Below, piece after piece: positions 2-64,000 of a DNA stretch of 64,000 bases. The notes beneath the pieces are model-generated. The model saw nothing but the letters and a program-made list of their open reading frames with translations. It had not been told where the DNA came from and did no database searches. The first letter of the stretch is position 1; each line of letters starts with the position of its first letter. The stretch lies in the NCBI RefSeq assembly GCF_009914755.1, contig NC_060938.1; one strand, given 5' to 3'. This DNA comes from the human T2T-CHM13v2.0 reference genome, Homo sapiens. A program made the position numbers and the translations under genes.

Positions 2-2365
2 GTCTTGGGAGATTATGAGCGGTCCCTCAGCCCTGACTCCTCAAGATTCATGCCTGCCTCACCCAGCTTCTCCCTCTCCCCTCCCAGAAACTCAGACCCA
101 AGGGGCAGCTCCTCACCAGGGATGTGGAAGTCCTCTACATCATCCCGCAGGGCTTCACCACTCTCACATCCGTCATCAACAGAATTCCACAACTTTACGT
201 TTCCCTTTCCTAATCAAGCAGGACAGTCACTCATGTCATTGTGTTCTCCTGTGACCTCCTCTGGAGATTCTTCACAGTCACCTCATTCATCAATAATATA
301 CCATATGTTCTTATTGCCATCATCCAGCAGCTCACCCCCAGCCACCCATGACTCTCCTGTCTGTCCCAGCTACTCTCCAACTACGCCCAGATTTCAGCGG
401 GAGTCTGTACCCCACACCCCAGAAACACCTACAAACTCACAGACCTCAGTGAGATCCTCGCCAGTCTCTCTCACGTCTTCACCCCCAGCCCTTACGGACC
501 CTCCAGTCTGTCCCAGCTACTCTCCAACCACGCCCACATTTCAGCGCGGGTCAGTTCCAGAAACCCAGGGATCACCACCAAGCCCACCGCTTTCACTGAG
601 TTACTCCCCAGTCTCTAGCACGTCTTTATCTCCAACCCTCAGGGACTCGCCTGTCTGTCCCAGCTACTCTCCAAACACGCCCACACTTCAGCGGGAGTCC
701 GTTGCAGGCACCCAGAAGTCACCACCAAACTCACCAATTTCACTGCGTTACTCCCCAGTCTCTCTCATGTCTTCACCATCCCTCAGGGACTCTCCCGTCT
801 GTCCCAGCTACTCTCCAACCACGCCCACATTTCAGCTGGAGTCAGTTCCAGGCACCCCGGAATCACCACCAAACTCACCAATTTCACTCAGTTACTCCCC
901 AGTCTCTAGCACGTCTTTATCTCCAACCCTCAGGGACTCTCCTGTGTGTCCCAGCTACTCTCCAACCACGCCCACACTTCAGCGGGAGTCAGTTCCAGGC
1001 ACCCAGGAATCACCACCAAACTCACCAATTTCACTCAATTACTCTCCAGTCTCTCTCGTGTCTTCACCAGCCCTCAGGGACTCTCCTGTCTGTCCCAGCT
1101 ACTCTACAACCACGCCCACATTTCAGCTGGAGTCAGTTCCAGGCACCCCGGAGTCACCACCAAACTCACCAGTTTCACTCAGTTACTCCCCGGTCTCTCT
1201 CATGTCTTCACCCCCAGCCCTCAGGGACTCTCCTGTGCGTCCCAGCTACTCTCCAACCATGCCCAGATTCCAGCGGGAGTCAGTTCCAGGCACCCATGTA
1301 TCACCACCAAACTCAGCAGTTTCACTGAGTTACTCCCCAGTCTCTCTCATGTCTTCACCCCCAGACCCCTGGGACTCTCCTGTCTGTCCCAGCTACTCTC
1401 CCACCACGCCCAGATTTCAGCGGGAGTCAGCCTCCCACACTCCGGAATCAGATACAGACTCACAGACTTCACTGAACTCCTCCCTGGTCTCTCTCAGGTC
1501 TTTGCCCTCATCCCACAGGGACTCTTGTGTCTCTTTCAGCTACTCTCAAAACTTCTCTAGATTCCAGCTGGAGTCAGTTCCAGGCACCCACGATACACCA
1601 CCGAACTCACGAATTTCACTGACTTACGCCCCAGTCTCCCTCATGTTCTCACCCCCAGCCCTCAGGGACTCTTCTGTCTCTCTCAGCTACTCTCCAACCA
1701 TCTCCAGATTTCACCTGGAGTCAGCTTCCCACACCCTGGAATCACCTGCAAACTCACGGACCTTACTGCAACCATCCCCCATTTCTTTCACCTCTTCACC
1801 CCCTGCCTTCAGGGACTCTCCTGGGTCTCCCAGCTTCTCTCCAGCCTTCCCCAGATTTCTGCCACAGTCAGCCCCAGGCACCCAGGACAACCCTAGACAC
1901 TCACAGGCCTCACCAGACTATCTCCCTATGACCTGTACCTATACAGGGATGGCTCCCACGCATCCCTCAGTGACCCCAAACCCATCTCCACTTACACTCA
2001 GGCACTCCCAGGGCCTGACAGCTACTCCCCGTTATTGTCCTTCAGTTCGAAGCCCTGGCCAATCTACTAGCCCACATGACGCAGTTACCTGGCCATTTCT
2101 CCACGGTTCCCGGGAGGGCCCCACACCCAGCCGCACAAGAGCCCCTCCTGCATTCCGTCCTCACACGCAGGCCTGTCCATCTACTTGCTACTGTCACACT
2201 CTTGCCAGCAGAAGAGGCCCCTGTAATGGCCGATATCACCACCCAGTCTATCCTCACCCCACAGCTGTGCAGCGGGAACCCCCTGCTGGCCCACGTGGCT
2301 GCCACAGCCCATGCTGGCACGACGCTCCAGCAGGTCGGCGTCCCTGCGGGCCAAACTACCGGTGA
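2..2365 (+). CDS. Ser/Pro-rich 49-aa-repeat protein with CTD-like YSPTTP motifs, copy 1 (5' end cut off by the window edge)
   Basis: Open frame matching aa ~208-993 of the other copies; ends at TGA 2363-2365. The true ATG lies upstream of the window. Confidence 0.55.
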   Translation, partial: VLGDYERSLSPDSSRFMPASPSFSLSPPRNSDPRGSSSPGMWKSSTSSRRASPLSHPSSTEFHNFTFPFPNQAGQSLMSLCSPVTSSGDSSQSPHSSIIYHMFLLPSSSSSPPATHDSPVCPSYSPTTPRFQRESVPHTPETPTNSQTSVRSSPVSLTSSPPALTDPPVCPSYSPTTPTFQRGSVPETQGSPPSPPLSLSYSPVSSTSLSPTLRDSPVCPSYSPNTPTLQRESVAGTQKSPPNSPISLRYSPVSLMSSPSLRDSPVCPSYSPTTPTFQLESVPGTPESPPNSPISLSYSPVSSTSLSPTLRDSPVCPSYSPTTPTLQRESVPGTQESPPNSPISLNYSPVSLVSSPALRDSPVCPSYSTTTPTFQLESVPGTPESPPNSPVSLSYSPVSLMSSPPALRDSPVRPSYSPTMPRFQRESVPGTHVSPPNSAVSLSYSPVSLMSSPPDPWDSPVCPSYSPTTPRFQRESASHTPESDTDSQTSLNSSLVSLRSLPSSHRDSCVSFSYSQNFSRFQLESVPGTHDTPPNSRISLTYAPVSLMFSPPALRDSSVSLSYSPTISRFHLESASHTLESPANSRTLLQPSPISFTSSPPAFRDSPGSPSFSPAFPRFLPQSAPGTQDNPRHSQASPDYLPMTCTYTGMAPTHPSVTPNPSPLTLRHSQGLTATPRYCPSVRSPGQSTSPHDAVTWPFLHGSREGPTPSRTRAPPAFRPHTQACPSTCYCHTLASRRGPCNGRYHHPVYPHPTAVQREPPAGPRGCHSPCWHDAPAGRRPCGPNYR
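330..1930 (+). repeat. 147-bp tandem satellite (ACRO1-type) core in unit 1; recurs inside every ORF copy
   Basis: The CAGCTACTCTCC-type motif has its TAC/TTC codon at 371, 518, 665, 809, 956, 1100, 1247, 1394, 1541, 1688 and 1835 (spacing 147 or 144). The 147-bp period and 6-kb composite context match ACRO1 as I recall it. Confidence 0.88.
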
Positions 2366-2574
2366 CATGTCTAGCGTGACCCTCCTTCCTGGCAGTGACA
2401 CTGTTGATGTGAACCCCAATTTCACATCTGTCATTTGTAAATAGGACCATTTTCCCTTTTCGCTCTCCCTTCCATTCACAGGGCTTTTCATTCTCTCTGT
2501 TACTGCCTCCGTTTCAGATATTTACTCACCTTTTTCTCTCTCACTATGTCTGCCGTGGGCTCCATGAGAGTGCG

Positions 2575-3779: not shown

Positions 3780-4110
3780 GTGGTCATTATCCTCAGCAAA
3801 CTTATCCAGGGAAAGAAAACCAAACGCCACAACTCACTTATAATGGGAGCTGAAAAATGAGATCCCATGGACACAGGAAGGGGAACAACACACACTGGGG
3901 CCTTCCGGGAGACAGAGCGTTAAGAAAAACAGCTACTGCATGCTGGGATTAATACCTAGGTGATGGGTTGACAGGTGCAGCAAACCACCATGGCACACGT
4001 TTACCTTAGTAACAAATCTGCACATCCTGCACATATACCCCAGAACTTAGGAACGAAACGAAACAAAAGACAACGAAAAAGCAACAGCAAAACGCTAAAG
4101 GCAAAATAAA
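3780..4110 (+). mobile_element. L1PA (older primate LINE-1) 3' end with decayed A-rich tail; copies near 10064, 16344, 22620, 28893, 35184, 41476, 47768, 54069, 60358
   Basis: Typical L1PA 3'UTR sequence: CATTATCCTCAGCAAACT, GGACACAGGAAGGGGAACAACACACACTGGGGCC, TAATACCTAGGTGATGGGTTGACAGGTGCAGCAAACCACCATGGCACACGTTTACC, CTGCACATCCTGCACAT..CCCCAGAACTTA, then an A-rich tail. Confidence 0.85.
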
Positions 4111-4279
4111 GTTTCAAACTGAGAAAGTGACAGACCAACGTCTGGTTCAAATCATGGTTCTCAACCCAGGTGCCATAAGGTCAGGATAAAGGATGTGATT
4201 ACATATTGTCAATAAGACATGCAGCAAATGACCAGAATGATTATTCTCAACATATGAGTGTCTTCTAATTCAATGGCGA

Positions 4280-4720
4280 CGCTATCTACCGGGACATAGC
4301 ATTAGATTCCAAAGGGCCGAGTCCCGCCAGACAGGCCTCCCACACTAATAACAATGGGAAGCCCTACGTTGCTTTACCTGTGCTTCTCAGCCACTGGCTA
4401 TAAATCAGGTTGCCACCACTCCCAGATTTAGTTGCATTCATTTGCTGGAAGAGCTCACAGCACGCAGGGAAACACATTTGCCGTTGTATTTTAGCGGACA
4501 TTGCACAAAGTTCAGAAATAAATGTGGGGCCCGGCATGTGGGGAGGGGCGCACTACCTTCCAGGAAGTGCTATCCAGAAGCTCTCTGAACCCAGTCCTTT
4601 TGGGTTTTGATGGAGACCTCATTCTATAGGCATGATGGGTTAAACCATAGGCTATTGGTGATCAACTCCACCTGGGGCTCTCCACCCTCCCTGGAAATTG
4701 GGGTTGAGGCTTTGCCATCC
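4280..4720. mobile_element. MER21-like LTR fragment; copies near 10565, 16845, 23120, 29395, 35685, 41975, 48270, 54570, 60860
   Basis: Motifs CTGGCTATAAATCAGG, GCTCACAG..CAGGGAAACACTTACATTT, GAAGCTCTCTGAACCCAGTCCTTTTGGGTTTT and ATTGGTGATCAACTC resemble the MER21 consensus as I recall it. Boundaries approximate. Confidence 0.65.
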
Positions 4721-4791
4721 TCAGTCTGACTAAAAGAATTTACCCAAACGGAATTTTAAAACAGATGAGCATAACTGGAATCTTAATTAGA

Positions 4792-4802
4792 TGATTGGAT
4801 TA
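4792..4802 (-). promoter_or_regulatory. DUX4/DUX-family consensus site TAATCCAATCA (TGATTGGATTA on +), one per unit
   Basis: Exact match to TAAYYYAATCA; also at 11080, 17356, 23632, 29909, 36200, 42488, 48784, 55085 and 61374. Confidence 0.5.
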
Positions 4803-5269
4803 TCTGGAGCCACACCTTGATATTCCTAACCCGAGCACCCTCATCCAACGAATGCTCCACCCAACTGGCTCCCAAGTCTCTACGTGGTTCCAGAGCAAAA
4901 GGATGTTGATACAACGCATATCTCCACCTTTTCTTCAAAGTCTTTTCGCTTACACGGAAAGACTTCTTCAACTGCCATGCATCAGGGTCAGGGGGAGGTC
5001 TTGTTACAACACAGATCTGCGGATCTCCGGCATTTGACTGTGGCAAGGATGCTGCTGGTGTCAAAACCACAACGTGGGAACCACAGAACCACTAGTGGGT
5101 TTTCAGTGTTTCAGTGCATACAATTCCTAATATATCTGGCTAAGAAAACTTGTAAGTTCTTAGATTGTCCCAAAGGTGGCGCATGAAATCAAAGCAGGAG
5201 AACAGTTTCCTACGAGGTGTAGCCTGGGAAAGTTGGGGGTGACTGATGGAAAGGAGGAGTGAAGCTCCA

Positions 5270-5450
5270 CCCTTTCCGCTGCTAGGCTGCGCCCGAGGCA
5301 ATTTAAACCCACCCTGGCTGGCCTGTACTCAGATCTTCGCGGAGCGGATCAGCGGCCGGAGCGTTTGGCGGACTCTGCGTGGACTTGGAGCTCACAGCGT
5401 CTTGCGACTTGGAAGCGGATTCAGAGGACAGGACAGAACACTTGGACAAG
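5270..5450 (+). promoter_or_regulatory. Putative core promoter and CpG-rich non-coding first exon
   Basis: (A/T)ATTTAAA at 5300, Inr-consensus TCAGATC with its A at 5331 (31 bp apart), a dense CpG cluster at 5275-5420, and donor-like CAA|GTGAAT at 5450. Confidence 0.5.
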
Positions 5451-5456
5451 TGAATC

Positions 5457-5486
<30 letters not shown>
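5457..5486. repeat. (TCTG)n microsatellite, 6-8 units depending on copy
   Basis: Directly visible; 7 units here, 6 near 30575, 8 near 49449 (one unit variant) and 55750. Confidence 0.92.
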
Positions 5487-5487
<1 letters not shown>

Positions 5488-5536
5488 CATTGGTTGGTTG
5501 ATTTCCATTTTCTTAAGGGGCACATACCTCACACCG

Positions 5537-5595
5537 CACACACACAAACACACACACGCACACACACACACACACGCACACACACGCACACACAC
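5537..5595. repeat. Interrupted (CA)n microsatellite just upstream of each ATG
   Basis: Directly visible; recurs in every unit. Confidence 0.92.
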
Positions 5596-5656
5596 TCCTT
5601 CCTTCTGCGAGTTAGAACATTAGTAGGGGCCCCTGGGAGCTGCAGGTTTCCTAAAC

Positions 5657-8638
5657 ATGTCTGCACCTAAGAACAGTAGGGTCTTGTCTGGCTCTTCTTA
5701 TGAACGGTCCCCCAGCCCGGACTCCCCAAGGTCCATGCGAGCCTCACCCAGCTTCTCCCTCTCCCCTCTCAGAAACTCACGCTTAAGGGGAAGCTCCTCA
5801 CCAGGGATCCGGAGCTACCATTCACCATCCCCTAGGGCTTCACCACACTCACCTCTGTCATCACCAGAATCCCACAAGCTCCCATTTCCCTGTCCTCACC
5901 GTGATGGGCAATCAATAAAGCCATTGGGCTCTCCCGTGTCCTCCTCTGAGGAATCCTCAGAGTCCCCACGTTCATCAATAATATACCACATGTTCTTACT
6001 GCCATCACCCAGCAGCTCACCCCCAGCTCTCGGGGGGTCTCCTGTGTCTCCCAGCTACTCTCCAAACAACCCCAGATTTCAGCTGCGGTCAGCCCCCCAC
6101 ACCAAGGAATCACCTACAAACTCACGAGCCTCACTTTTCTCCACCCCTGTGTCTTTCATCTCTTCACCCCCAGGCCTCAGGGACTCTCCTGTGGCTCCCA
6201 GTTACTCTCCAGCCATCCCCAGGTTCCTGCGGGAGTCAGCCCCATACACCCAGGAGTCCCCCAGAGACTCACAAGTCTTGGGAGTTTATAAGCGGTCCCT
6301 CAGCCCTGACTCCTCAAGATTCATGCCTGCCTCACCCAGCTCCTCCCTCTCCCCTCCCAGAAACTCAGACCCAAGGGGCAGCTCCTCACCAGGGATGTGG
6401 AAGTCCTCTACATCATCCCGCAGGGCTTCACCACTCTCACATCCGTCATCAACAGAATTTCACAACTTTACGTTTCCCTTTCCTAACCAAGCAGGACAAT
6501 CACTCATGTCATTGTGTTCTCCCGTGACCTCCTCTGGAGATTCTTCACAGTCACCTCATTCATCAATAATATACCATATGTTCTTACTGCCATCATCCAG
6601 CAGCTCACCCCCAGCCACCCATGACTCTCCTGTCTGTCCCAGCTACTCTCCAACTACGCCCAGATTTCAGCGGGAGTCTGTACCCCACACCCCAGAAACA
6701 CCTACAAACTCACAGACCTCAGTGAGATCCTCGCCAGTCTCTCTCACGTCTTCACCCCCAGCCCTTACGGACCCTCCAGTCTGTCCCAGCTGCTCTCCAA
6801 CCACGCCCACATTTCAGCGCGGGTCAGTTCCAGGAACCCAGGGATCACCTCCAAGCCCACCGCTTTCACTGAGTTACTCCCCAGTCTCTAGCACGTCTTT
6901 ATCTCCAACCCTCAGGGACTCGCCTGTCTGTCCCAGCTACTCTCCAAACACGCCCACACTTCAGCGGGAGTCCGTTGCAGGCACCCAGAAGTCACCACCA
7001 AACTCACCAATTTCACTGCGTTACTCCCCAGTCTCTCTCATGTCTTCACCATCCCTCAGGGACTCTCCCGTCTGTCCCAGCTACTCTCCAACCACGCCCA
7101 CATTTCAGCTGGAGTCAGTTCCAGGCACCCCGGAATCACCACCAAACTCACCAATTTCACTCAGTTACTCCCCAGTCTCTAGCACGTCTTTATCTCCAAC
7201 CCTCAGGGACTCTCCTGTGTGTCCCAGCTACTCTCCAACCACGCCCACACTTCAGTGGGAGTCAGTTCCAGGCACCCAGGAATCACCACCAAACTCACCA
7301 ATTTCACTCAATTACTCTCCAGTCTCTCTCGTGTCTTCACCAGCCCTCAGGGACTCTCCTGTCTGTCCCAGCTACTCTACAACCACGCCCACATTTCAGC
7401 TGGAGTCAGTTCCAGGCACCCCGGAGTCACCACCAAACTCACCAGTTTCACTCAGTTACTCCTCGGTCTCTCTCATGTCTTCACCCCCAGCCCTCAGGGA
7501 CTCTCCTGTGCGTCCCAGCTACTCTCCAACCATGCCCAGATTCCAGCGGGAGTCAGTTCCAGGCACCCATGTATCACCACCAAACTCAGCAGTTTCACTG
7601 AGTTACTCCCCAGTCTCTCTCATGTCTTCACCCCCAGACCCCTGGGACTCTCCTGTCTGTCCCAGCTACTCTCCCACCACGCCCAGATTTCAGCGGCAGT
7701 CAGCCTCCCACACTCCGGAATCAGATACAGACTCACAGACTTCACTGAACTCCTCCCTGGTCTCTCTCAGGTCTTTGCCCTCATCCCACAGGGACTCTTG
7801 TGTCTCTTTCAGCTACTCTCAAAACTTCTCTAGATTCCAGCTGGAGTCAGTTCCAGGCACCCACGATACACCACCGAACTCACGAATTTCACTGACTTAC
7901 GCCCCAGTCTCCCTCATGTTCTCACCCCCAGCCCTCAGGGACTCTTCTGTCTCTCTCAGCTACTCTCCAACCATCTCCAGATTTCACCTGGAGTCAGCTT
8001 CCCACACCCTGGAATCACCTGCAAACTCACGGACCTTACTGCAACCATCCCCCATTTCTTTCACCTCTTCACCCCCTGCCTTCAGGGACTCTCCTGGGTC
8101 TCCCAGCTTCTCTCCAGCCTTCCCCAGATTTCTGCCACAGTCAGCCCCAGGCACCCAGGACAACCCTAGACACTCACAGGCCTCACCAGACTATCTCCCT
8201 ATGACCTGTACCTATACAGGGATGGCTCCCACGCATCCCTCAGTGACCCCAAACCCATCTCCACTTACACTCAGGCACTCCCAGGGCCTGACAGCTACTC
8301 CCCGTTATTGTCCTTCAGTTCGAAGCCCTGGCCAATCTACTAGCCCACATGACGCAGTTACCTGGCCATTTCTCCACGGTTCCCGGGAGGGCCCCACACC
8401 CAGCCGCACAAGAGCCCCTCCTGCATTCCGTCCTCACACGCAGGCCTGTCCATCTACTTGCTACTGTCACACTCTTGCCAGCAGAAGAGGCCCCTGTAAT
8501 GGCCGATATCACCACCCAGTCTATCCTCACCCCACAGCTGTGCAGCGGGAACCCCCTGCTGGCCCACGTGGCTGCCACAGCCCATGCTGGCACGACGCTC
8601 CAGCAGGTCGGCGTCCCTGCGGGCCAAACTACCGGTGA
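5657..8638 (+). CDS. 993-aa Ser/Pro-rich repeat protein (ACRO1-encoded, Pol II CTD-like motifs), copy 2
   Basis: Uninterrupted 2982-bp ORF; ATG in AAACATGT context; monomer length changes are multiples of 3. Confidence 0.6.
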   Translation: MSAPKNSRVLSGSSYERSPSPDSPRSMRASPSFSLSPLRNSRLRGSSSPGIRSYHSPSPRASPHSPLSSPESHKLPFPCPHRDGQSIKPLGSPVSSSEESSESPRSSIIYHMFLLPSPSSSPPALGGSPVSPSYSPNNPRFQLRSAPHTKESPTNSRASLFSTPVSFISSPPGLRDSPVAPSYSPAIPRFLRESAPYTQESPRDSQVLGVYKRSLSPDSSRFMPASPSSSLSPPRNSDPRGSSSPGMWKSSTSSRRASPLSHPSSTEFHNFTFPFPNQAGQSLMSLCSPVTSSGDSSQSPHSSIIYHMFLLPSSSSSPPATHDSPVCPSYSPTTPRFQRESVPHTPETPTNSQTSVRSSPVSLTSSPPALTDPPVCPSCSPTTPTFQRGSVPGTQGSPPSPPLSLSYSPVSSTSLSPTLRDSPVCPSYSPNTPTLQRESVAGTQKSPPNSPISLRYSPVSLMSSPSLRDSPVCPSYSPTTPTFQLESVPGTPESPPNSPISLSYSPVSSTSLSPTLRDSPVCPSYSPTTPTLQWESVPGTQESPPNSPISLNYSPVSLVSSPALRDSPVCPSYSTTTPTFQLESVPGTPESPPNSPVSLSYSSVSLMSSPPALRDSPVRPSYSPTMPRFQRESVPGTHVSPPNSAVSLSYSPVSLMSSPPDPWDSPVCPSYSPTTPRFQRQSASHTPESDTDSQTSLNSSLVSLRSLPSSHRDSCVSFSYSQNFSRFQLESVPGTHDTPPNSRISLTYAPVSLMFSPPALRDSSVSLSYSPTISRFHLESASHTLESPANSRTLLQPSPISFTSSPPAFRDSPGSPSFSPAFPRFLPQSAPGTQDNPRHSQASPDYLPMTCTYTGMAPTHPSVTPNPSPLTLRHSQGLTATPRYCPSVRSPGQSTSPHDAVTWPFLHGSREGPTPSRTRAPPAFRPHTQACPSTCYCHTLASRRGPCNGRYHHPVYPHPTAVQREPPAGPRGCHSPCWHDAPAGRRPCGPNYR
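6020..8200 (+). repeat. 147-bp ACRO1-type monomer array in unit 2 (complete example, including diverged 5' monomers)
   Basis: SYSP Tyr codons fall at aa 134, 183, 330, 379, 428 and onward, in 49-aa (147-bp) phase. Confidence 0.85.
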
Positions 8639-11587
8639 CATGTCTAGCGTCACCCTCCTTCCTGGCAGTGACACTGTTGATGTGAACCCCAATTTCACAT
8701 CTGTCATTTGTAAATAGGACCATTTTCCCTTTTCGCTCTCCCTTCCATTCACAGGGCTTTTCATTCTCTCTGTTACTGCCTCCGTTTCAGATATTTACTC
8801 ACCTTTTTCTCTCTCACTATGTCTGCCGTGGGCTCCATGAGAGTGCGCCACATAAGATTCCCCCATTAAAAGTCATGAATTGAGTGGCTTTTAGTATACC
8901 TGTGGTTGTGCACATTCAAATTTAATTCGCATTTCATTGTAGAACGTCTTATCACTCCCGGCCAGAGAAAAACCCTGTAGACATTAGTCACTCCTCATTC
9001 TGTCTCAAACCCTCTCCCTCACCCGCAGCCCTAGGTAGCAACTACCTAGTGCGATCAATCCCATATGCATAGATTACCATATTGTGGACATTTCCTATAA
9101 GCGGAATTGCACAATAGGGGAGCTGTTATGACTGACATAACACGTAACACAATATTTTCAAGATTCGTCCACATTGTAGGCTTACCCACAGGGGGAAACC
9201 ATTTTTTTGGGGGCTTTTAGTAACACCGGTGTTTTCTCCTTCGTTACGTCCTTCTTTCCTTCCTTCCTTCCTTCCTTCCTTCCTTCCTTCCTGACTTCCT
9301 TCTTTCCTTCCCTCCTTCCTCCTATTTCTCTCTTACTCCTTCTGCCCTCTCTCTTTCCTATGCCTTAGGTGCATCCCACATTCTGCGTTTTTTTGGGGAA
9401 ATCCTCGACAGGTGCAGGAAAATTGTGTTATTGTAACTATTTACCGTTATCTCTCTTTCACGGCTCTCCATCAGTTGTGAATATCTATTGGTTTATCCCA
9501 AGTCTCTAAGCATATTTTCATTAGGTAAACCTGTTTTTCCTTATACAGCTGTTTCTGGAGTATAGGGTCGCATACTCATAAACCCAGTGTAACTCAGAAA
9601 CGCATCTAATATTCCAGTAAACCCATCATAACGTTGAAAAATCGTAAATCAAACCATCATAAGTCACGGTTTGTCCGTGGATATGGGCCTCATCAATTCC
9701 ATTGTATTCAGTAATGCTGTACACCATTAACAATGGCAGACTGATTGGGAGTGGATATTGATAGCATTATAAAAGTCAGTTATTAGAGGGATACTTCTTT
9801 AACCTGACTGAAGAACTGATCTAATGGCTTTAGTACAGTGCATGATTATGTGCGATGTTTTGAGACAGAGTAGTACAATTGTGAATGAAATTTTATGGCT
9901 TTTTTTTCACTTAGTAGGAACCATTGTGTGTGGAAAAGTGAGAAAATGGCTTTCTGCTGTAGGGTCTGGCATTCATTGTAGATGTAAGCTGATTTTTCTG
10001 TGAGCAAATCTTATTCAATAAAATACTACTCTTTATACTAAAAAACAAAAACAGTGGTGATGTGTGGTCATTATCCTCAACAAACTTATCCAGGGAAAGA
10101 AAACCAAACGCCACAACTCACTTATAATGGGAGCTGAAAAATGAGATCCCATGGACACAGGAAGGGGAACAACACACACTGGGGCCTTCCGGGAGACAGA
10201 GCGTTAAGAAAAACAGCTACTGCATGCTGGGCTTAATACCTAGGTGATGGGTTGACAGGTGCAGCAAACCACCATGGCACACGTTTACCTTAGTAACAAA
10301 TCTGCACATCCTGCACATATACCCCAGAACTTAGGAACGAAACGAAACAAAAGACAACGAAAAAGCAACAGCAAAACGCTAAAGGCAAAATAAAGTTTCA
10401 AACTGAGAAAGTGACAGACCAAAGTCTGGTTCAAATCATGGATCCCAGCCCAGGTGCCATAAGGTCAGGATAAAGGATGTGATTACATATTGTCAATAAG
10501 ACATGCAGCAAATGACCAGAATGATTATTCTCAACATATATGTGTCTTCTAATTCAATGGTGACGCTATCTACCGGGACATAGCATTAGATTCCAAAGGG
10601 CCGAGACCCGCCAGACAGGCCTCCCACACTAATAACAATGGGAAGCCCTACGTTGCTTTACCTGTGCTTCTCAGCCACTGGCTATAAATCAGGTTGCCAC
10701 CACTCCCAGATTTAGTTGCATTCATTTGCTGGAAGAGCTCACAGCACGCACGGAAACACTTACATTTGCCGTTGTATTTTAGCGGACATTGCACAAAGTT
10801 CAGAAATAAATGTGGGGCCCGGCATGTGGGGAGGGGCGCACTACCTTCCAGGAAGTGCTATCCAGAAGCTCTCTGAACCCAGTCCTTTTGGGTTTTGATG
10901 GAGACCTCATTCTATAGGCATGATGGGTTAAACCATAGGCTATTGGTGATCAACTCCACCTGGGGCTCTCCACCCTCCCTGGAAATTGGGGTTGAGGCTT
11001 TGCCATCCTCAGTCTGACTAAAAGAATTTACCCAAACGGAATTTTAAAACAGATGAGCATAACTGGAATCTTAATTAGATGATTGGATTATCTGGAGCCA
11101 CACCTTGATATTCCTAACCCGAGCACCCTCATCCAACGAATGCTCCACCCAACTGGCTCCCAAGTCTCTACGTGGTTCCAGAGCAAAAGGATGTTGATAC
11201 AACGCATATCTCCACCTTTTCTTCCAAGTCTTTTCGCTTACACGGAAAGACTTCTTCAACTGCCATGCATCAGGGTCAGGGGGAGGTCTTGTTACAACAC
11301 AGATCTGCGGATCTCCGGCGTTTGACTGTGGCAAGGATGCTGCTGGTGTCAAAACCACAACGTGGGAACCACAGAACCACTAGTGGGTTTTCAGTGTTTC
11401 AGTGCATACAATTCCTAATATATCTGGCTAAGAAAACTTGTAAGTTCTTAGATTGTCCCAAAGGTGGCGCACGAAATCAAAGCAGGAGAACAGTTTCCTA
11501 CGAGGTGTAGCCTGGGAAAGTTGGGGGTGACTGATGGAAAGGAGGAGTGAAGCTCCACCCTTTCCGCTGCTAGGCTGCGCCCGAGGC

Positions 11588-30769: not shown

Positions 30770-33751
30770 ATGTCTGCACCTAAGAACACTAGGGTCTTGT
30801 CTGGCTCTTCTTATGAACGGTCCCCCAGCCCGGACTCCCCAAGGTCCATGCGAGCCTCACCCAGCTTCTCCCTCTCCCCTCTCAGAAACTCAGGCTTAAG
30901 GGGAAGCTCCTCACCAGGGATCGGGAGCTACCATTCACCATCCCCTAGGGCTTCACCACACTCACCTCTGTCATCACCAGAATCCCACAAGCTCCCATTT
31001 CCCTGTCCTCACCGTGATGGGCAATCAATAAAGCCATTGGGCTCTCCCGTGTCCTCCTCTGAGGAATCCTCAGAGTCCCCACGTTCATCAATAATATACC
31101 ACATGTTCTTACTGCCATCACCCAGCAGCTCACCCCCAGCTCTCGGGGGGTCTCCTGTGTCTCCCAGCTACTCTCCAAACAACCCCAGATTTCAGCTGCA
31201 GTCAGCCCCCCACAACAAGGAATCACCTACAAACTCACGAGCCTCACGATGCTCCACCCCCTTGTCTTTCATCTCTTCACCCCCAGGCGTCAGGGTCTCT
31301 CCTGTGGCTCCCAGTTAGTCTCCAGCCATCCGCAGGTTCCTGCGGGAGTCAGGCCCATGCACCCAGGAGTCCCCCAGAGACTCACAGGTCTCGGGAGAAA
31401 GTGAGCGGTCCCCCAGCCCTGACTCCTCAAGATTCATGCCTGCCTCACCCAGCTTCTCCCTCTCCCCTCCCAGAAACTCAGACCCAAGGGGCAGCTCCTC
31501 ACCAGGGATGTGGAAGTCCTCTACATCATCCCGCAGGGCTTCACCACTCTCACATCCGTCATCAACAGAGTTCCACAACTTTATGTTTCCCTTTCCTAAC
31601 CAAGCAGGACAATCACTCATGTCATTGTGTTCTCCCGTGACCTCCTCTGGAGATTCTTCACAGTCACCTCATTCATCAATAATATACCATATGTTCTTAC
31701 TGCCATCATCCAGCAGCTCACCCCCAGCCACCCATGACTCTCCTGTCTGTCCCAGCTACTCTCCAACTACGCCCAGATTTCAGCGGGAGTCTGTACCCCA
31801 CACCCCAGAAACACCTACAAACTCACAGACCTCAGTGAGATCCTCGCCAGTCTCTCTCACGTCTTCACCCCCAGCCCTTACGGACCCTCCAGTCTGTCCC
31901 AGCTACTCTCCAACCACGCCCACATTTCAGCGCGGGTCAGTTCCAGGAACCCAGGGATCACCACCAAGCCCACCGCTTTCACTGAGTTACTCCCCAGTCT
32001 CTAGCACGTCTTTATCTCCAACCCTCAGGGACTCGCCTGTCTGTCCCAGCTACTCTCCAAACACGCCCACACTTCAGCGGGAGTCCGTTGCAGGCACCCA
32101 GAAGTCACCACCAAACTCACCAATTTCACTGCGTTACTCCCCAGTCTCTCTCATGTCTTCACCATCCCTCAGGGACTCTCCCGTCTGTCCCAGCTACTCT
32201 CCAACCACGCCCACATTTCAGCTGGAGTCAGTTCCAGGCACCCCGGAATCACCACCAAACTCACCAATTTCACTCAGTTACTCCCCAGTCTCTAGCACGT
32301 CTTTATCTCCAACCCTCAGGGACTCTCCTGTGTGTCCCAGCTACTCTCCAACCACGCCCACACTTCAGCGGGAGTCAGTTCCAGGCACCCAGGAATCACC
32401 ACCAAACTCACCAATTTCACTCAATTACTCTCCAGTCTCTCTCGTGTCTTCACCAGCCCTCAGGGACTCTCCTGTCTGTCCCAGCTACTCTACAACCACG
32501 CCCACATTTCAGCTGGAGTCAGTTCCAGGCACCCCGGAGTCACCACCAAACTCACCAGTTTCACTCAGTTACTCCTCGGTCTCTCTCATGTCTTCACCCC
32601 CAGCCCTCAGGGACTCTCCTGTGCGTCCCAGCTACTCTCCAACCATGCCCAGATTCCAGCGGGAGTCAGTTCCAGGCACCCATGTATCACCACCAAACTC
32701 AGCAGTTTCACTGAGTTACTCCCCAGTCTCTCTCATGTCTTCACCCCCAGACCCCTGGGACTCTCCTGTCTGTCCCAGCTACTCTCCCACCACGCCCAGA
32801 TTTCAGCGGGAGTCAGCCTCCCACACTCCGGAATCAGATACAGACTCACAGACTTCACTGAACTCCTCCCTGGTCTCTCTCAGGTCTTTGCCCTCATCCC
32901 ACAGGGACTCTTGTGTCTCTTTCAGCTACTCTCAAAACTTCTCTAGATTCCAGCTGGAGTCAGTTCCAGGCACCCACGATACACCACCGAACTCACGAAT
33001 TTCACTGACTTACGCCCCAGTCTCCCTCATGTTCTCACCCCCAGCCCTCAGGGACTCTTCTGGCTCTCTCAGCTACTCTCCAACCATCTCCAGATTTCAC
33101 CTGGAGTCAGCTTCCCACACCCTGGAATCACCTGCAAACTCACGGACCTTACTGCAACCATCCCCCATTTCTTTCACCTCTTCACCCCCTGCCTTCAGGG
33201 ACTCTCCTGGGTCTCCCAGCTTCTCTCCAGCCTTCCCCAGATTTCTGCCACAGTCAGCCCCAGGCACCCAGGACAACCCTAGACACTCACAGGCCTCACC
33301 AGACTATCTCCCTATGACCTGTACCTATACAGGGATGGCTCCCACGCATCCCTCAGTGACCCCAAACCCATCTCCACTTACACTCAGGCACTCCCAGGGC
33401 CTGACAGCTACTCCCCGTTATTGTCCTTCAGTTCGAAGCCCTGGCCAATCTACTAGCCCACATGACGCAGTTACCTGGCCATTTCTCCACGGTTCCCGGG
33501 AGGGCCCCACACCCAGCCGCACAAGAGCCCCTCCTGCATTCCGTCCTCACACGCAGGCCTGTCCATCTACTTGCTACTGTCACACTCTTGCCAGCAGAAG
33601 AGGCCCCTGTAATGGCCGATATCACCACCCAGTCTATCCTCACCCCACAGCTGTGCAGCGGGAACCCCCTGCTGGCCCACGTGGCTGCCACAGCCCATGC
33701 TGGCACGACGCTCCAGCAGGTCGGCGTCCCTGCGGGCCAAACTACCGGTGA
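30770..33751 (+). pseudogene. Copy 6 with nonsense Y183* (TAC>TAG)
   Basis: Same 2982-bp span; TAG at 31316-31318; the frame stays open from ATG 31436 (771 aa). Confidence 0.65.
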
Positions 33752-37064: not shown

Positions 37065-40046
37065 ATGTCTGCACCTAAGAACAGTAGGGTCTTGTCTGGC
37101 TCTTCTTATGAACGGTCCCCCAGCCCGGACTCCCCAAGGTCCATGCGAGCCTCACCCAGCTTCTCCCTCTCCCCTCTCAGAAACTCAGGCTTAAGGGGAA
37201 GCTCCTCACCAGGGATCCGGAGCTACCATTCACCATCCCCTAGGGCTTCACCACACTCACCTCTGTCATCACCAGAATCCCACAAGCTCCCATTTCCCTG
37301 TCCTCACCGTGATGGGCAATCAATAAAGCCATTGGGCTCTCCCGTGTCCTCCTCTGAGGATTCCTCAGAGTCCCCACGTTCATCAATAATATACCACATG
37401 TTCTTACTGCCATCACCCAGCAGCTCACCCCCAGCTCTCGGGGGGTCTCCTGTGTCTCCCAGCTACTCTCCAAACAACCCCAGATTTCAGCTGGAGTCAG
37501 CCCCCCACACCCAGGAATCACCTACAAACTCACGAGCCTCACGGTGCTCCACCCCCGTGTCTTTCATCTCTTCACCCCCAGGCCTCAGGGACTCTCCTGT
37601 GGCTCCCAGTTACTCTCCAGCCATCCGCAGGTTCCTGCGGGAGTCAGCCCCATGCACCCAGGAGTCCCCCAGAGACTCACAGGTCTCGGGAGATTATGAG
37701 CGGTCCCCCAGCCCTGACTCCTCAAGATTCATGCCTCCCTCACCCAGCTTCTCCCTCTCCCCTCCCAGAAACTCAGACCCAAGGGGCAGCTCCTCACCAG
37801 GGATGTGGAAGTGCTCTACATCATCCCGCAGGGCTTCACCACTCTCACATCCGTCATCAACAGAATTCCACAACTTTACGTTTCCCTTTCCTAACCAAGC
37901 AGGACAGTCACTCATGTCATTGTGTTCTCCCGTGACCTCCTCTGGAGATTCTTCACAGTCACCTCATTCATCAATAATATACCATATGTTCTTACTGCCA
38001 TCATCCAGCAGCTCACCCCCAGCCACCCATGACTCTCCTGTCTGTCCCAGCTACTCTCCAACTACGCCCAGATTTCAGCGGGAGTCTGTACCCCACACCC
38101 CAGAAACACCTACAAACTCACAGACCTCAGTGAGATCCTCGCCAGTCTCTCTCACGTCTTCACCCCCAGCCCTTACGGACCCTCCAGTCTGTCCCAGCTA
38201 CTCTCCAACCACGCCCACATTTCAGCGCGGGTCAGTTCCAGGAACCCAGGGATCACCACCAAGCCCACCGCTTTCACTGAGTTACTCCCCAGTCTCTAGC
38301 ACGTCTTTATCTCCAACCCTCAGGGACTCGCCTGTCTGTCCCAGCTACTCTCCAAACACGCCCACACTTCAGCGGGAGTCCGTTGCAGGCACCCAGAAGT
38401 CACCACCAAACTCACCAATTTCACTGCGTTACTCCCCAGTCTCTCTCATGTCTTCACCATCCCTCAGGGACTCTCCCGTCTGTCCCAGCTACTCTCCAAC
38501 CACGCCCACATTTCAGCTGGAGTCAGTTCCAGGCACCCCGGAATCACCACCAAACTCACCAATTTCACTCAGTTACTCCCCAGTCTCTAGCACGTCTTTA
38601 TCTCCAACCCTCAGGGACTCTCCTGTGTGTCCCAGCTACTCTCCAACCACGCCCACACTTCAGCGGGAGTCAGTTCCAGGCACCCAGGAATCACCACCAA
38701 ACTCAACAATTTCACTCAATTACTCTCCAGTCTCTCTCGTGTCTTCACCAGCCCTCAGGGACTCTCCTGTCTGTCCCAGCTACTCTACAACCACGCCCAC
38801 ATTTCAGCTGGAGTCAGTTCCAGGCACCCCGGAGTCACCACCAAACTCACCAGTTTCACTCAGTTACTCCTCGGTCTCTCTCATGTCTTCACCCCCAGCC
38901 CTCAGGGACTCTCCTGTGCGTCCCAGCTACTCTCCAACCATGCCCAGATTCCAGCGGGAGTCAGTTCCAGGCACCCATGTATCACCACCAAACTCAGCAG
39001 TTTCACTGAGTTACTCCCCAGTCTCTCTCATGTCTTCACCCCCAGACCCCTGAGACTCTCCTGTCTGTCCCAGCTACTCTCCCACCACGCCCAGATTTCA
39101 GCGGGAGTCAGCCTCCCACACTCCGGAATCAGATACAGACTCACAGACTTCACTGAACTCCTCCCTGGTCTCTCTCAGGTCTTTGCCCTCATCCCACAGG
39201 GACTCTTGTGTCTCTTTCAGCTACTCTCAAAACTTCTCTAGATTCCAGCTGGAGTCAGTTCCAGGCACCCACGATACACCACCGAACTCACGAATTTCAC
39301 TGACTTACGCCCCAGTCTCCCTCATGTTCTCACCCCCAGCCCTCAGGGACTCTTCTGTCTCTCTCAGCTACTCTCCAACCATCTCCAGATTTCACCTGGA
39401 GTCAGCTTCCCACACCCTGGAATCACCTGCAAACTCACGGACCTTACTGCAACCATCCCCCATTTCTTTCACCTCTTCACCCCCTGCCTTCAGGGACTCT
39501 CCTGGGTCTCCCAGCTTCTCTCCAGCCTTCCCCAGATTTCTGCCACAGTCAGCCCCAGGCACCCAGGACAACCCTAGACACTCACAGGCCTCACCAGACT
39601 ATCTCCCTATGACCTGTACCTATACAGGGATGGCTCCCACGCATCCCTCAGTGACCCCAAACCCATCTCCACTTACACTCAGGCACTCCCAGGGCCTGAC
39701 AGCTACTCCCCGTTATTGTCCTTCAGTTCGAAGCCCTGGCCAATCTACTAGCCCACATGACGCAGTTACCTGGCCATTTCTCCACGGTTCCCGGGAGGGC
39801 CCCACACCCAGCCGCACAAGAGCCCCTCCTGCATTCCGTCCTCACACGCAGGCCTGTCCATCTACTTGCTACTGTCACACTCTTGCCAGCAGAAGAGGCC
39901 CCTGTAATGGCCGATATCACCACCCAGTCTATCCTCACCCCACAGCTGTGCAGCGGGAACCCCCTGCTGGCCCACGTGGCTGCCACAGCCCATGCTGGCA
40001 CGACGCTCCAGCAGGTCGGCGTCCCTGCGGGCCAAACTACCGGTGA
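37065..40046 (+). pseudogene. Copy 7 with nonsense W663* (TGG>TGA)
   Basis: TGA at 39051-39053 where other copies read CCCTGGGAC; gives a 662-aa truncated product lacking the Cys/His tail. Confidence 0.65.
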
Positions 40047-62238: not shown

Positions 62239-64000
62239 ATGTCTGCACCTAAGAACAGTAGGGTCTTGTCTGGCTCTTCTTATGAACGGTCCCCCAGCCC
62301 GGACTCCCCAAGGTCCATGCGAGCCTCACCCAGCTTCTCCCTCTCCCCTCTCAGAAACTCAGGCTTAAGGGGAAGCTCCTCACCAGGGATCGGGAGCTAC
62401 CATTCACCATCCCCTAGGGCTTCACCACACTCACCTCTGTCATCACCAGAATCCCACAAGCTCCCATTTCCCTGTCCTCACCGTGATGGGCAATCAATAA
62501 AGCCATTGGGCTCTCCCGTGTCCTCCTCTGAGGAATCCTCAGAGTCCCCACGTTCATCAATAATATACCACATGTTCTTACTGCCATCACCCAGCAGCTC
62601 ACCCCCAGCTCTCGGGGGGTCTCCTGTGTCTCCCAGCTACTCTCCAAACAACCCCAGATTTCAGCTGCAGTCAGCCCCCCACAACAAGGAATCACCTACA
62701 AACTCACGAGCCTCACGATGCTCCACCCCCTTGTCTTTCATCTCTTCACCCCCAGGCGTCAGGGTCTCTCCTGTGGCTCCCAGTTAGTCTCCAGCCATCC
62801 GCAGGTTCCTGCGGGAGTCAGCCCCATGCACCCAGGAGTCCCCCAGAGACTCACAGGTCTCGGGAGAAAGTGAGCGGTCCCCCAGCCCTGACTCCTCAAG
62901 ATTCATGCCTGCCTCACCCAGCTTCTCCCTCTCCCCTCCCAGAAACTCAGACCCAAGGGGCAGCTCCTCACCAGGGATGTGGAAGTCCTCTACATCATCC
63001 CGCAGGGCTTCACCACTCTCACATCCGTCATCAACAGAGTTCCACAACTTTACGTTTCCCTTTCCTAACCAAGCAGGACAATCACTCATGTCATTGTGTT
63101 CTCCCGTGACCTCCTCTGGAGATTCTTCACAGTCACCTCATTCATCAATAATATACCATATGTTCTTACTGCCATCATCCAGCAGCTCACCCCCAGCCAC
63201 CCATGACTCTCCTGTCTGTCCCAGCTACTCTCCAACTACGCCCAGATTTCAGCGGGAGTCTGTACCCCACACCCCAGAAACACCTACAAACTCACAGACC
63301 TCAGTGAGATCCTCGCCAGTCTCTCTCACGTCTTCACCCCCAGCCCTTACGGACCCTCCAGTCTGTCCCAGCTACTCTCCAACCACGCCCACATTTCAGC
63401 GCGGGTCAGTTCCAGGAACCCAGGGATCACCACCAAGCCCACCGCTTTCACTGAGTTACTCCCCAGTCTCTAGCACGTCTTTATCTCCAACCCTCAGGGA
63501 CTCGCCTGTCTGTCCCAGCTACTCTCCAAACACGCCCACACTTCAGCGGGAGTCCGTTGCAGGCACCCAGAAGTCACCACCAAACTCACCAATTTCACTG
63601 CGTTACTCCCCAGTCTCTCTCATGTCTTCACCATCCCTCAGGGACTCTCCCGTCTGTCCCAGCTACTCTCCAACCACGCCCACATTTCAGCTGGAGTCAG
63701 TTCCAGGCACCCCGGAATCACCACCAAACTCACCAATTTCACTCAGTTACTCCCCAGTCTCTAGCACGTCTTTATCTCCAACCCTCAGGGACTCTCCTGT
63801 GTGTCCCAGCTACTCTCCAACCACGCCCACACTTCAGCGGGAGTCAGTTCCAGGCACCCAGGAATCACCACCAAACTCACCAATTTCACTCAATTACTCT
63901 CCAGTCTCTCTCGTGTCTTCACCAGCCCTCAGGGACTCTCCTGTCTGTCCCAGCTACTCTACAACCACGCCCACATTTCAGCTGGAGTCAGTTCCAGGCA
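62239..64000 (+). pseudogene. Copy 11 with nonsense Y183* (3' end cut off by the window edge)
   Basis: TAG at 62785-62787, the same allele as copy 6; the frame reopens at ATG 62905 and runs off the window. Confidence 0.62.

What the first reader, a model, noticed from the sequence alone, without database searches (positions are those of the whole stretch)
4792..4802. Perfect DUX4-type motif ~540 bp upstream of the putative TSS in all ten spacers
Seen: TGATTGGATTA (reverse complement TAATCCAATCA) is invariant in all units and adjacent to a TAATTA homeobox core. Established: DUX4 binds TAAYYYAATCA and activates cleavage-stage multicopy genes (ZSCAN4, PRAMEF, TRIM43, LEUTX, MBD3L) and repeats such as HSATII and MaLR/ERVL. 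Inference: the array may be a DUX4-driven gene cluster active at zygotic genome activation or in FSHD muscle, which would explain why somatic annotation misses it. One 11-mer per 6.3 kb could be chance, and the copies are not independent observations.
Basis: partly seen in the sequence, partly recalled or inferred. Interest (0 to 1): 0.7.

Follow-up and report, generated by a model that had tools for sequence, protein, structure and literature searches.

The report
Hidden gene array in ACRO satellite
Each 6.3-kb unit of this 'satellite' array carries a DUX4 binding motif in front of a 993-codon open reading frame, so it is likely an unannotated early-embryo gene present in over a hundred copies, predicted to make a floppy protein that resembles the tail of RNA polymerase II.

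Summary
The motif TAATCCAATCA is real at 4792-4802 and in all ten units. Its invariance there means little, because the units are over 99% identical. The unit is the ACRO composite repeat, and induction of ACRO1 RNA by DUX4 is already published. Three things are added here. (1) Published DUX4 ChIP-seq peaks map onto the homologous motif in a chr2 copy and, by spacing alone, in two chr4 copies. 175 of 178 flank-defined genomic copies keep the consensus. (2) The unit has gene anatomy: a TATA-like box at -31, an initiator, and a first AUG opening a 993-aa frame (5657-8638). The frame is intact in 7 of 10 units, and 128 of 150 scored genomic hits lie in open frames of at least 900 codons. (3) The ACRO1 147-bp 'satellite' is an in-frame 49-codon repeat of that frame, with YSPTTPT motifs. 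A neutral model expects about 9 stops and none is present. Predicted homologues with the same start exist in marmoset (71-76%) and in a one-monomer form (48%). Against: no translation evidence, dN/dS of about 1-1.5, and homologues that are only predictions. Best reading: a DUX4-driven, multicopy coding gene on acrocentric short arms. The CTD-mimic function is inferred.

The parts
4792..4802 (-). DUX4 consensus site TAATCCAATCA, unit 1. Same site at 11080, 17356, 23632, 29909, 36200, 42488, 48784, 55085, 61374
   Evidence: consensus TAAYBBAATCA from PMC12376486; ChIP peaks on paralogous sites
4784..4789 (.). TAATTA homeodomain core next to the DUX4 site
   Evidence: sequence; changed in 2 of 29 copies
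4827..4837 (+). Decayed second DUX4-type site (two mismatches here; a perfect match in the chr19 copy L029)
5300..5307 (+). TATA-like box at -31: TATTTAAA in 22 of 29 copies, AATTTAAA in 7 of the 10 window units including unit 1
   Evidence: also kept in chr19 and chr2 copies
5329..5335 (+). Initiator-like TCAGATC, putative +1 at A5331 (consensus recalled; start not measured)
5331..5656 (+). Putative 5' leader with no upstream ATG. Holds a possible short intron with (TCTG)n and (CA)n; the donor near 5446 reads GTAAGT in chr19, GCAAGT in most copies and ACAAGT in all ten window units
5657..8638 (+). 993-aa open reading frame, 49% Ser/Pro/Thr, 82 SP and 14 YSP motifs. Also intact at 11945-14926, 18221-21202, 24497-27478, 43353-46334, 49653-52634, 55954-58935
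5698..6842 (+). In-frame 588-bp (196-codon) internal duplication, 5698-6254 against 6286-6842, 77.6% identical, no gaps; also present in the marmoset protein
6035..6298 (+). Short ACRO1 block (two monomers), in frame
6623..8170 (+). Long ACRO1 block: 147/144-bp monomers encoding 49/48-aa repeats with CTD-like SYSPTTP motifs; the only indels are 3 bp
8114..8635 (+). His/Cys-rich C-terminal tail; holds one of the best-kept blocks (CPSTCYCHTLA) in distant homologues
10017..10022 (+). Candidate poly(A) signal AATAAA of unit 1 (first AATAAA after the stop; an ATTAAA is at 8865)
30770..31318 (+). Unit 5 frame, premature TAG at codon 183 (same in unit 10, 62239-62787)
37065..39053 (+). Unit 6 frame, premature TGA at codon 663
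4792..11079 (+). One ACRO composite unit, motif to motif (period 6276-6301 bp). Literature lists ACRO1, L1PA10, MER21B and L1MB8 as parts; my placing of the L1 end (about 3790-4080) and the MER21-like piece (about 4200-4730) is recalled, not tested

Best explanation
Each ACRO unit is likely a protein-coding gene that DUX4 likely switches on through the site at 4792-4802, and the ACRO1 'satellite' is an in-frame 49-codon repeat inside its 993-codon open frame. Steps: (1) DUX4 binds the site: shown for a paralogous site on chr2, likely for chr4, inferred for these chr14 units. (2) Pol II starts at the TATA/initiator near 5331: inferred from sequence. (3) A polyadenylated RNA accumulates around the 4-cell stage and in DUX4-positive muscle: shown for ACRO1 RNA as a class; its ends and polyadenylation are inferred. 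(4) The first AUG gives an intrinsically disordered, basic, Ser/Pro/Thr-rich protein of about 900-1250 aa depending on monomer number: inferred from frame conservation. (5) Its spaced S-P-S-Y-S-P-T motifs most likely work as mimics of the Pol II CTD heptad: a multivalent substrate or decoy for proline-directed CTD kinases and CTD readers during genome activation. This step is a hypothesis. Selection appears to keep the frame and the composition, not the exact sequence; arrays are homogenised and edge or dispersed copies decay.
For: DUX4: a peak at hg19 chr2:162,137,020-162,137,400 (height 151) sits on the motif of the single chr2 copy. hg19-minus-CHM13 offsets of four neighbouring peak motifs are 398,261, 398,266, 398,184 and 398,153, against 398,203 for this site. 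Two chr4 peaks have best motifs 12,434 bp apart, and two chr4 ACRO motifs are 12,435 bp apart. ACRO1 RNA rises 15.8x, with no peak on ACRO1 itself. 175 of 178 copies keep the consensus. Frame: 0 stops in the ORF frame against 13-91 in the other five. Neutral evolution on the monomer tree expects about 9 stops, and gave none in 1 of 1141 and 2 of 859 runs. Monomer indels are 3 bp. 128 of 150 genomic hits lie in frames of at least 900 codons. Among 23 copies there are 2 nonsense alleles against 7.4 expected (P=0.02) and no indel in about 500 non-repeat codons against 7 upstream. The marmoset record has the same start Met and is 71% (370 aa) and 76% (160 aa) identical with one 1-aa gap. A 305-aa one-monomer homologue aligns end to end at 142 of 298 positions and holds a perfect SPSYSPT heptad. 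A compact 358-aa frame is intact on chr2.
Against: No translation data were available. dN/dS is 0.84-1.0 between monomers, 1.0-1.1 against the chr2 copy and about 1.5 among array copies, so no amino-acid-level purifying selection was detected. Human-marmoset identity matches neutral drift at 0.14-0.16 substitutions per site. Homologues are automatic predictions, and about 60 residues of the marmoset record match the +1 frame. The 23-copy count dropped 7 of 30 copies (U10, L009, L017, L021, L023, L027, L028), six of them broken, and skipped the repeat block, which flatters it. 7 of 20 fetched loci and 3 of 10 window units are broken, as is the chr19 copy. Local RNA change at the three peaks was not significant or not expressed (FDR 0.87, 0.97). 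7 of 10 window units have a weakened TATA and all ten lack the usual donor. ACRO1 RNA cuts its own elongation in HeLa reporters. Heptads are spaced by 49 residues, not tandem, and Pfam finds no CTD repeat.
Confidence: 0.62

Rival explanations
1. DUX4 drives the unit, but the product is a non-coding RNA whose ACRO1 part binds Pol II and throttles its own transcription or helps build nucleolar heterochromatin; the frame is a relic.
For: SELEX enrichment of sense ACRO1 RNA on Pol II and cis attenuation in reporters (PMC7714431); dN/dS about 1; ACRO sits on all rDNA-bearing ape short arms.
Against: An RNA role does not explain the loss of nonsense and frameshift changes in one frame or the shared start Met and frame in distant homologues. 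The two roles can coexist.
Confidence: 0.17
2. A real coding gene, but its protein is a generic disordered Ser/Pro-rich phosphoprotein or scaffold, with function in the His/Cys tail; the CTD likeness is compositional. (This shares steps 1-4 of the best explanation and replaces step 5; its weight lies inside that 0.62.)
For: No Pfam CTD match; RPB1 hits are weak (E 6e-6); the CPSTCYCHTLA block is as well kept as the YSP block; the compact chr2 form has only one YSP.
Against: The segment that expanded in primates is the one holding the heptad, and a perfect 7/7 heptad is present in two homologues.
Confidence: 0.3
3. A formerly functional gene family now drifting in humans: recent array homogenisation copied a few intact templates, and expression is a by-product of DUX4.
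For: Copies are 94-99% identical, so 128 intact frames are few independent events; dN/dS of 1 or more; many dispersed copies broken; the window array has a weakened TATA and donor.
Against: Nonsense alleles are still depleted among present copies; separate arrays on chr3, 4, 13, 14, 15, 21 and 22 with different monomer numbers stay in frame.
Confidence: 0.16
4. The 11-mer is chance or is read by another homeodomain factor (it contains TAATCC, the K50 site; recalled), and ACRO1 induction is indirect.
For: A single 11-mer occurs in 1.4-3.2% of simulated units; read-based ChIP enrichment of ACRO1 itself is 1.1x.
Against: ChIP peaks on paralogous motifs; older copies read TAATTCAATCA, which keeps the DUX4 consensus and loses TAATCC.
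Confidence: 0.05

Closest known systems
ACRO composite / ACRE with ACRO1 satellite (PMC7714431; 10.1101/2021.07.12.451456; PMC12767296)
   Same: 147-bp monomer, long plus short block, about 6-kb unit, arrays on acrocentric arms, chr3 and chr4. CTD likeness of the translated monomer (23 of 49) was noted in 2020.
   Different: In the parts read, those papers treat it as satellite or RNA aptamer. They give no promoter, DUX4 site, full-length frame or protein homologues, and PMC7714431 reports no non-primate homologue.
DUX4-induced satellites (HSATII, ACRO1)
   Same: RNA induced by DUX4 and enriched in cleavage embryos.
   Different: Here there is one upstream site, core-promoter motifs and a long conserved frame, as in a gene.
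Multicopy DUX4 target genes and coding macrosatellites (ZSCAN4, PRAMEF, TRIM43, MBD3L; D4Z4/DUX4; others recalled)
   Same: Tandem or clustered copies, DUX4 site upstream, essentially one coding exon, fast protein evolution, a mix of intact and broken copies.
   Different: No shared protein family, far higher copy number, location on acrocentric short arms, and an internal coding repeat annotated as a satellite.
RNA polymerase II RPB1 C-terminal domain
   Same: Y-S-P-T-[ST]-P-[ST] motifs, Ser/Pro/Thr composition, no predicted fold; NCBI/UniRef name the marmoset and colobus models 'RPB1' or 'RPB1-like'.
   Different: No polymerase body; heptads occur singly in 49-aa units rather than in tandem; no Pfam CTD-repeat match.

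Membership tests
ACRO composite (ACRE) | 147-bp monomers in a long and a short block within a ~6-kb higher-order unit | tested here: met
   against the description
ACRO composite (ACRE) | Arrays on acrocentric short arms, chr3 and chr4 | tested here: met
ACRO composite (ACRE) | Dfam subunits ACRO1, L1PA10, MER21B, L1MB8 | not testable with these tools
   no Dfam library; names
Direct DUX4 target | TAAYBBAATCA site near the promoter | tested here: met
Direct DUX4 target | DUX4 occupancy of the site | tested here: met
   for paralogues only: chr2, chr4 by spacing; the chr14 units themselves were not examined
Direct DUX4 target | RNA induced by DUX4 | tested here: inconclusive
   15.8x for ACRO1 as a class; locus-level changes not significant
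Direct DUX4 target | Induction depends on the site | not testable with these tools
   needs a reporter or editing
Protein-coding gene | Long frame kept against neutral decay | tested here: met
Protein-coding gene | dN/dS below 1 | tested here: not met
   0.84-1.5
Protein-coding gene | Translation shown | not testable with these tools
   no Ribo-seq or proteomics access
RPB1 / Pol II CTD repeat family | Pfam CTD-repeat or polymerase domain match | tested here: not met
   no Pfam family at E<=1
RPB1 / Pol II CTD repeat family | Tandem heptads | tested here: not met
   isolated 6/7 matches spaced by 49-aa units
RPB1 / Pol II CTD repeat family | Phosphorylation by CTD kinases and binding of CTD readers | not testable with these tools
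   bench test

The most novel reading that the evidence does not exclude
The ACRO1 satellite is the expanded coding repeat of an old mammalian gene. Primates amplified it to well over a hundred intact copies on the rDNA-bearing short arms, and DUX4 fires the arrays at genome activation to flood the nucleus with a Pol II CTD mimic that titrates CTD kinases and readers. The same protein would appear in FSHD muscle and DUX4-positive tumours.
Probability: 0.28. Interest if true: 0.95.

Novelty: new variant of a known kind. Interest (0 to 1): 0.84.

Why it matters
Human acrocentric short arms are described as gene-poor, and a recent ape study contrasts human with gorilla on amplified coding genes there. 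A coding family with over a hundred intact copies would change that picture and would reclassify a textbook satellite as a coding repeat. It would explain why ACRO is kept on every rDNA-bearing ape arm and peaks in cleavage embryos. It would add a high-dose candidate to DUX4 toxicity in FSHD and a source of tumour antigens. The claim is directly testable by remapping public ChIP-seq, long-read RNA, Ribo-seq and proteomics data to T2T-CHM13, and the single chr2 copy is uniquely mappable.

Tried and rejected
Invariance across the ten units as evidence: rejected, since 79% of 11-column windows are invariant. A homeobox at 4795-5034: Pfam Homeodomain E=0.035, 14.4 bits against a cut-off of 22.9, 20 residues only; treated as chance. 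ACRO138 of the distal junction: a different repeat, 138 bp (passages). dN/dS as proof of coding: no signal. The first nonsense-depletion run (3 against 12.0) used a 3' stretch that misaligns in some copies and was replaced. The C-terminal paralogue count crashed. AlphaFold2 of the 358-aa chr2 form with 9 sequences: mean pLDDT 40.5, no fold, so no fold search was run. ESM Atlas with the marmoset protein: nearest clusters 'putative extensin-like' (993 aa, 70 members, score 0.89) and 'RPB1-like' (0.83), both leads only; structure hits all below TM 0.4. A look for a peak at the chr2:132.7 Mb copy used uncalibrated hg19 prefixes and is uninformative. Hendrickson 2017, the usual source for DUX4 induction of ACRO1, was not seen. 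Only 22 ACRO loci outside the window and its array were read in full, so genome-wide frame counts rest on the table. The chr19 rows of the stored ChIP table were not searched (the file is cut), and bioRxiv supplements were not seen.

Full report
OBSERVATION. TAATCCAATCA is on the minus strand at 4792-4802 and recurs once per unit, ten times. No other TAAYYYAATCA match exists even with one mismatch. Units are 6276-6301 bp and 99.0-99.9% identical, and 4981 of 6315 11-column windows are invariant across nine units, so the ten copies count as one. One match arises in 43 of 3000 simulated units and 71 of 15000 simulated 1-kb upstream regions; for the looser TAAYBBAATCA the figures are 96 of 3000 and 106 of 15000.

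WHAT THE UNIT IS. Each unit holds 147/144-bp monomers in a long and a short block. This fits the ACRO1-containing 6-kb element of PMC7714431 (main text parts 1-3 of 5 and part of the supplement read). PMC12767296 and its later version (passages) describe ACRO as ACRO1 + L1PA10 + MER21B + L1MB8, present on all rDNA-bearing ape arms. The motif context matches 199 places within three mismatches. DUX4 induction of ACRO1 RNA is stated in PMC8990217, PMC12776069 and PMC11467316 (passages), citing Hendrickson 2017, which I did not see. ACRO1 peaks at the 4-cell stage in PMC6545021 (passages); PMC12287470 instead describes a rise after cleavage. It is hypomethylated in spermatogonial stem cells and sperm (PMC5832720, one passage).

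IS THE SITE USED? The consensus TAAYBBAATCA is from PMC12376486 (passages). Of 178 copies defined by exact flanks, 175 keep it and 170 keep TAAYYYAATCA. Older dispersed copies on chr2, chr19 and chr20 read TAATTCAATCA and some chr22 copies TAATGCAATCA; both change the degenerate fifth base. In 29 aligned copies the site is invariant, but so are 91 of 592 windows upstream. Stronger evidence comes from the supplement of PMC3836709 (table rows only; main text not read). Table S2 gives ACRO1 15.8x RNA activation, no ChIP peak on ACRO1 itself and 1.1x read enrichment, as expected if the site lies 1.2 kb upstream of the first monomer. Table S1 has a peak at hg19 chr2:162,137,020-162,137,400, height 151. 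Taking its best motif as the chr2 copy's site gives an hg19-minus-CHM13 offset of 398,203. All four neighbouring peaks that I tested had a motif (0-1 mismatch) at offsets 398,261, 398,266, 398,184 and 398,153, so the peak is on the homologous site. Two 'unique' chr4 peaks have best motifs 12,434 bp apart, matching the 12,435 bp between two chr4 ACRO motifs; this rests on spacing only. Local RNA changes at these peaks were not significant or not expressed (log2FC 2.62, FDR 0.87; 3.21, FDR 0.97; not expressed).

GENE ANATOMY. TATTTAAA lies at 5300-5307 in 22 of 29 copies; 7 of the 10 window units read AATTTAAA. An initiator-like TCAGATC has its A at 5331 (consensus recalled). No ATG lies between 5331 and 5657, so the frame starts at the first AUG whether or not the short intron is spliced. 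The donor is GTAAGT in chr19, GCAAGT in most copies and lost in the window units. The frame runs 5657-8638, 993 aa. It is intact in 7 of 10 units, with stops at codon 183 (units 5, 10) and 663 (unit 6). AATAAA is at 10017. Of 150 scored genomic hits to the N-terminal 126 aa, 128 lie in open frames of at least 900 codons, 2 have a stop inside the match and 20 are shorter (150 of 619 candidates were scored). Of 20 loci chosen for diversity, 13 have ATG frames of 896-1090 aa and 7 are broken.

IS THE FRAME KEPT ON PURPOSE? It has no stop, against 13-91 in the other five frames. Shuffles give no stop with P=0.0015 (N-terminal part), 0 of 2000 (repeat) and 0.017 (tail). Thirteen monomers differ at about 20-25% of sites, yet differ in length only by 3 bp (two end monomers trimmed). 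Neutral evolution on their tree yields about 9 stops, and none in 1 of 1141 and 2 of 859 runs. A 588-bp internal duplication is gap-free and in frame. Among 23 copies, nonsense alleles are 2 against 7.4 expected (P=0.02), with no indel in the non-repeat coding parts against 7 upstream. That count dropped 7 of 30 copies, six of them broken, and the repeat block. Against coding: dN/dS is 0.84-1.0 between monomers, 0.87 across the duplication, 1.0-1.1 against chr2 and 1.5 among array copies.

HOMOLOGUES. A marmoset record of 832 aa named 'RPB1' shares the start Met, the duplication, the repeats and the tail: 262 of 369 and 122 of 160 identical, one 1-aa gap. That identity equals neutral drift of 0.14-0.16 substitutions per site, at which 530 codons stay stop-free with P about 0.001-0.003. 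About 60 residues of the record match the +1 frame, so it may contain a frameshift pair or a model patch. A colobus 'RPB1-like' model covers the N-terminus. An unnamed record, P0014, carries the same start, one monomer with a perfect SPSYSPT heptad and the His/Cys tail, identical at 142 of 298 aligned positions. Its distance suggests a lineage well outside monkeys and apes (inference; species unknown). Human chr2:161.74 Mb holds a compact two-monomer copy with an intact 358-aa frame, DUX4 site, TATA and initiator. The chr19:47.23 Mb copy is frameshifted near codon 82 and has two perfect DUX4 sites. There is no Pfam family, weak RPB1 CTD hits in the PDB and no predicted fold.

MECHANISM. Shown: motif, frame, occupancy of a paralogous site, class-level induction. 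Inferred: start site, transcript ends, translation. Hypothesised: the repeated S-Y-S-P-T-T-P motifs in a disordered, basic chain act as a multivalent CTD mimic for proline-directed kinases and CTD readers during the DUX4 pulse. I put the coding, DUX4-driven gene at about 0.62, and the CTD-mimic role at somewhat under half of that. The RNA-aptamer model of PMC7714431 is the main non-coding rival and may coexist.

NOVELTY. Known: the repeat, its induction by DUX4, its embryonic expression, and the CTD likeness of one translated monomer. Automatic annotation has called such proteins in marmoset and colobus. Not found in print: the DUX4 site, the gene anatomy, the full frame or its conservation. 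Searches: ACRO1+DUX4, ACRO1+satellite+open reading frame (13), ACRO1+147+composite (17), ACRO1+CTD (25), ACRO1+embryo+T2T (26), ACRO1+protein-coding+marmoset (56), a translation-terms search whose 25 listed papers lacked ACRO1 (75), RPB1-like+embryo+genome activation (76, none) and ACRO+acrocentric+DUX4+open reading frame (84, none). The library lacks most subscription journals, and unseen supplements may bear on this. It works like a multicopy DUX4 target gene array and is a member of the ACRO family. It is not a member of the RPB1 CTD family.

Noticed in passing
L030:1434-2510 (chr2:161.74 Mb): Single, uniquely mappable compact copy with an intact 358-aa frame, full promoter and a published DUX4 peak; the best handle for experiments.
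   Followed up: yes
L029 and chr19:47.23-47.29 Mb: At least four older copies in inverted arrangement on chr19; L029 has two perfect DUX4 sites and a GT donor but a frameshifted frame. Possible ancestral locus.
   Followed up: partly
window 5300 and 5446: This chr14 array has a TATA variant in 7 of 10 units and has lost the usual splice donor in all ten, so it may be weaker or unspliced compared with other arrays.
   Followed up: partly
window 5657-6622 and 8096-8638 across 23 copies: Excess of nonsynonymous over synonymous variants (151 to 38, P=0.02), a possible sign of positive selection or of mutation bias.
   Followed up: partly
chr15:100-160 kb and chr21:207-222 kb: Copies with longer open frames (1006-1387 codons) and wider spacing form a separate ACRO subtype.
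   Followed up: no
window 4795-5034 (+): 80-codon stop-free stretch with a weak homeodomain helix-3 match (E=0.035, below cut-off) that overlaps the DUX4 site; probably chance.
   Followed up: partly
window 2001-2400 and 5201-5400: CpG observed/expected of 0.5-0.75 in the tail exon and the core promoter, in line with reported germline hypomethylation of ACRO1.
   Followed up: no
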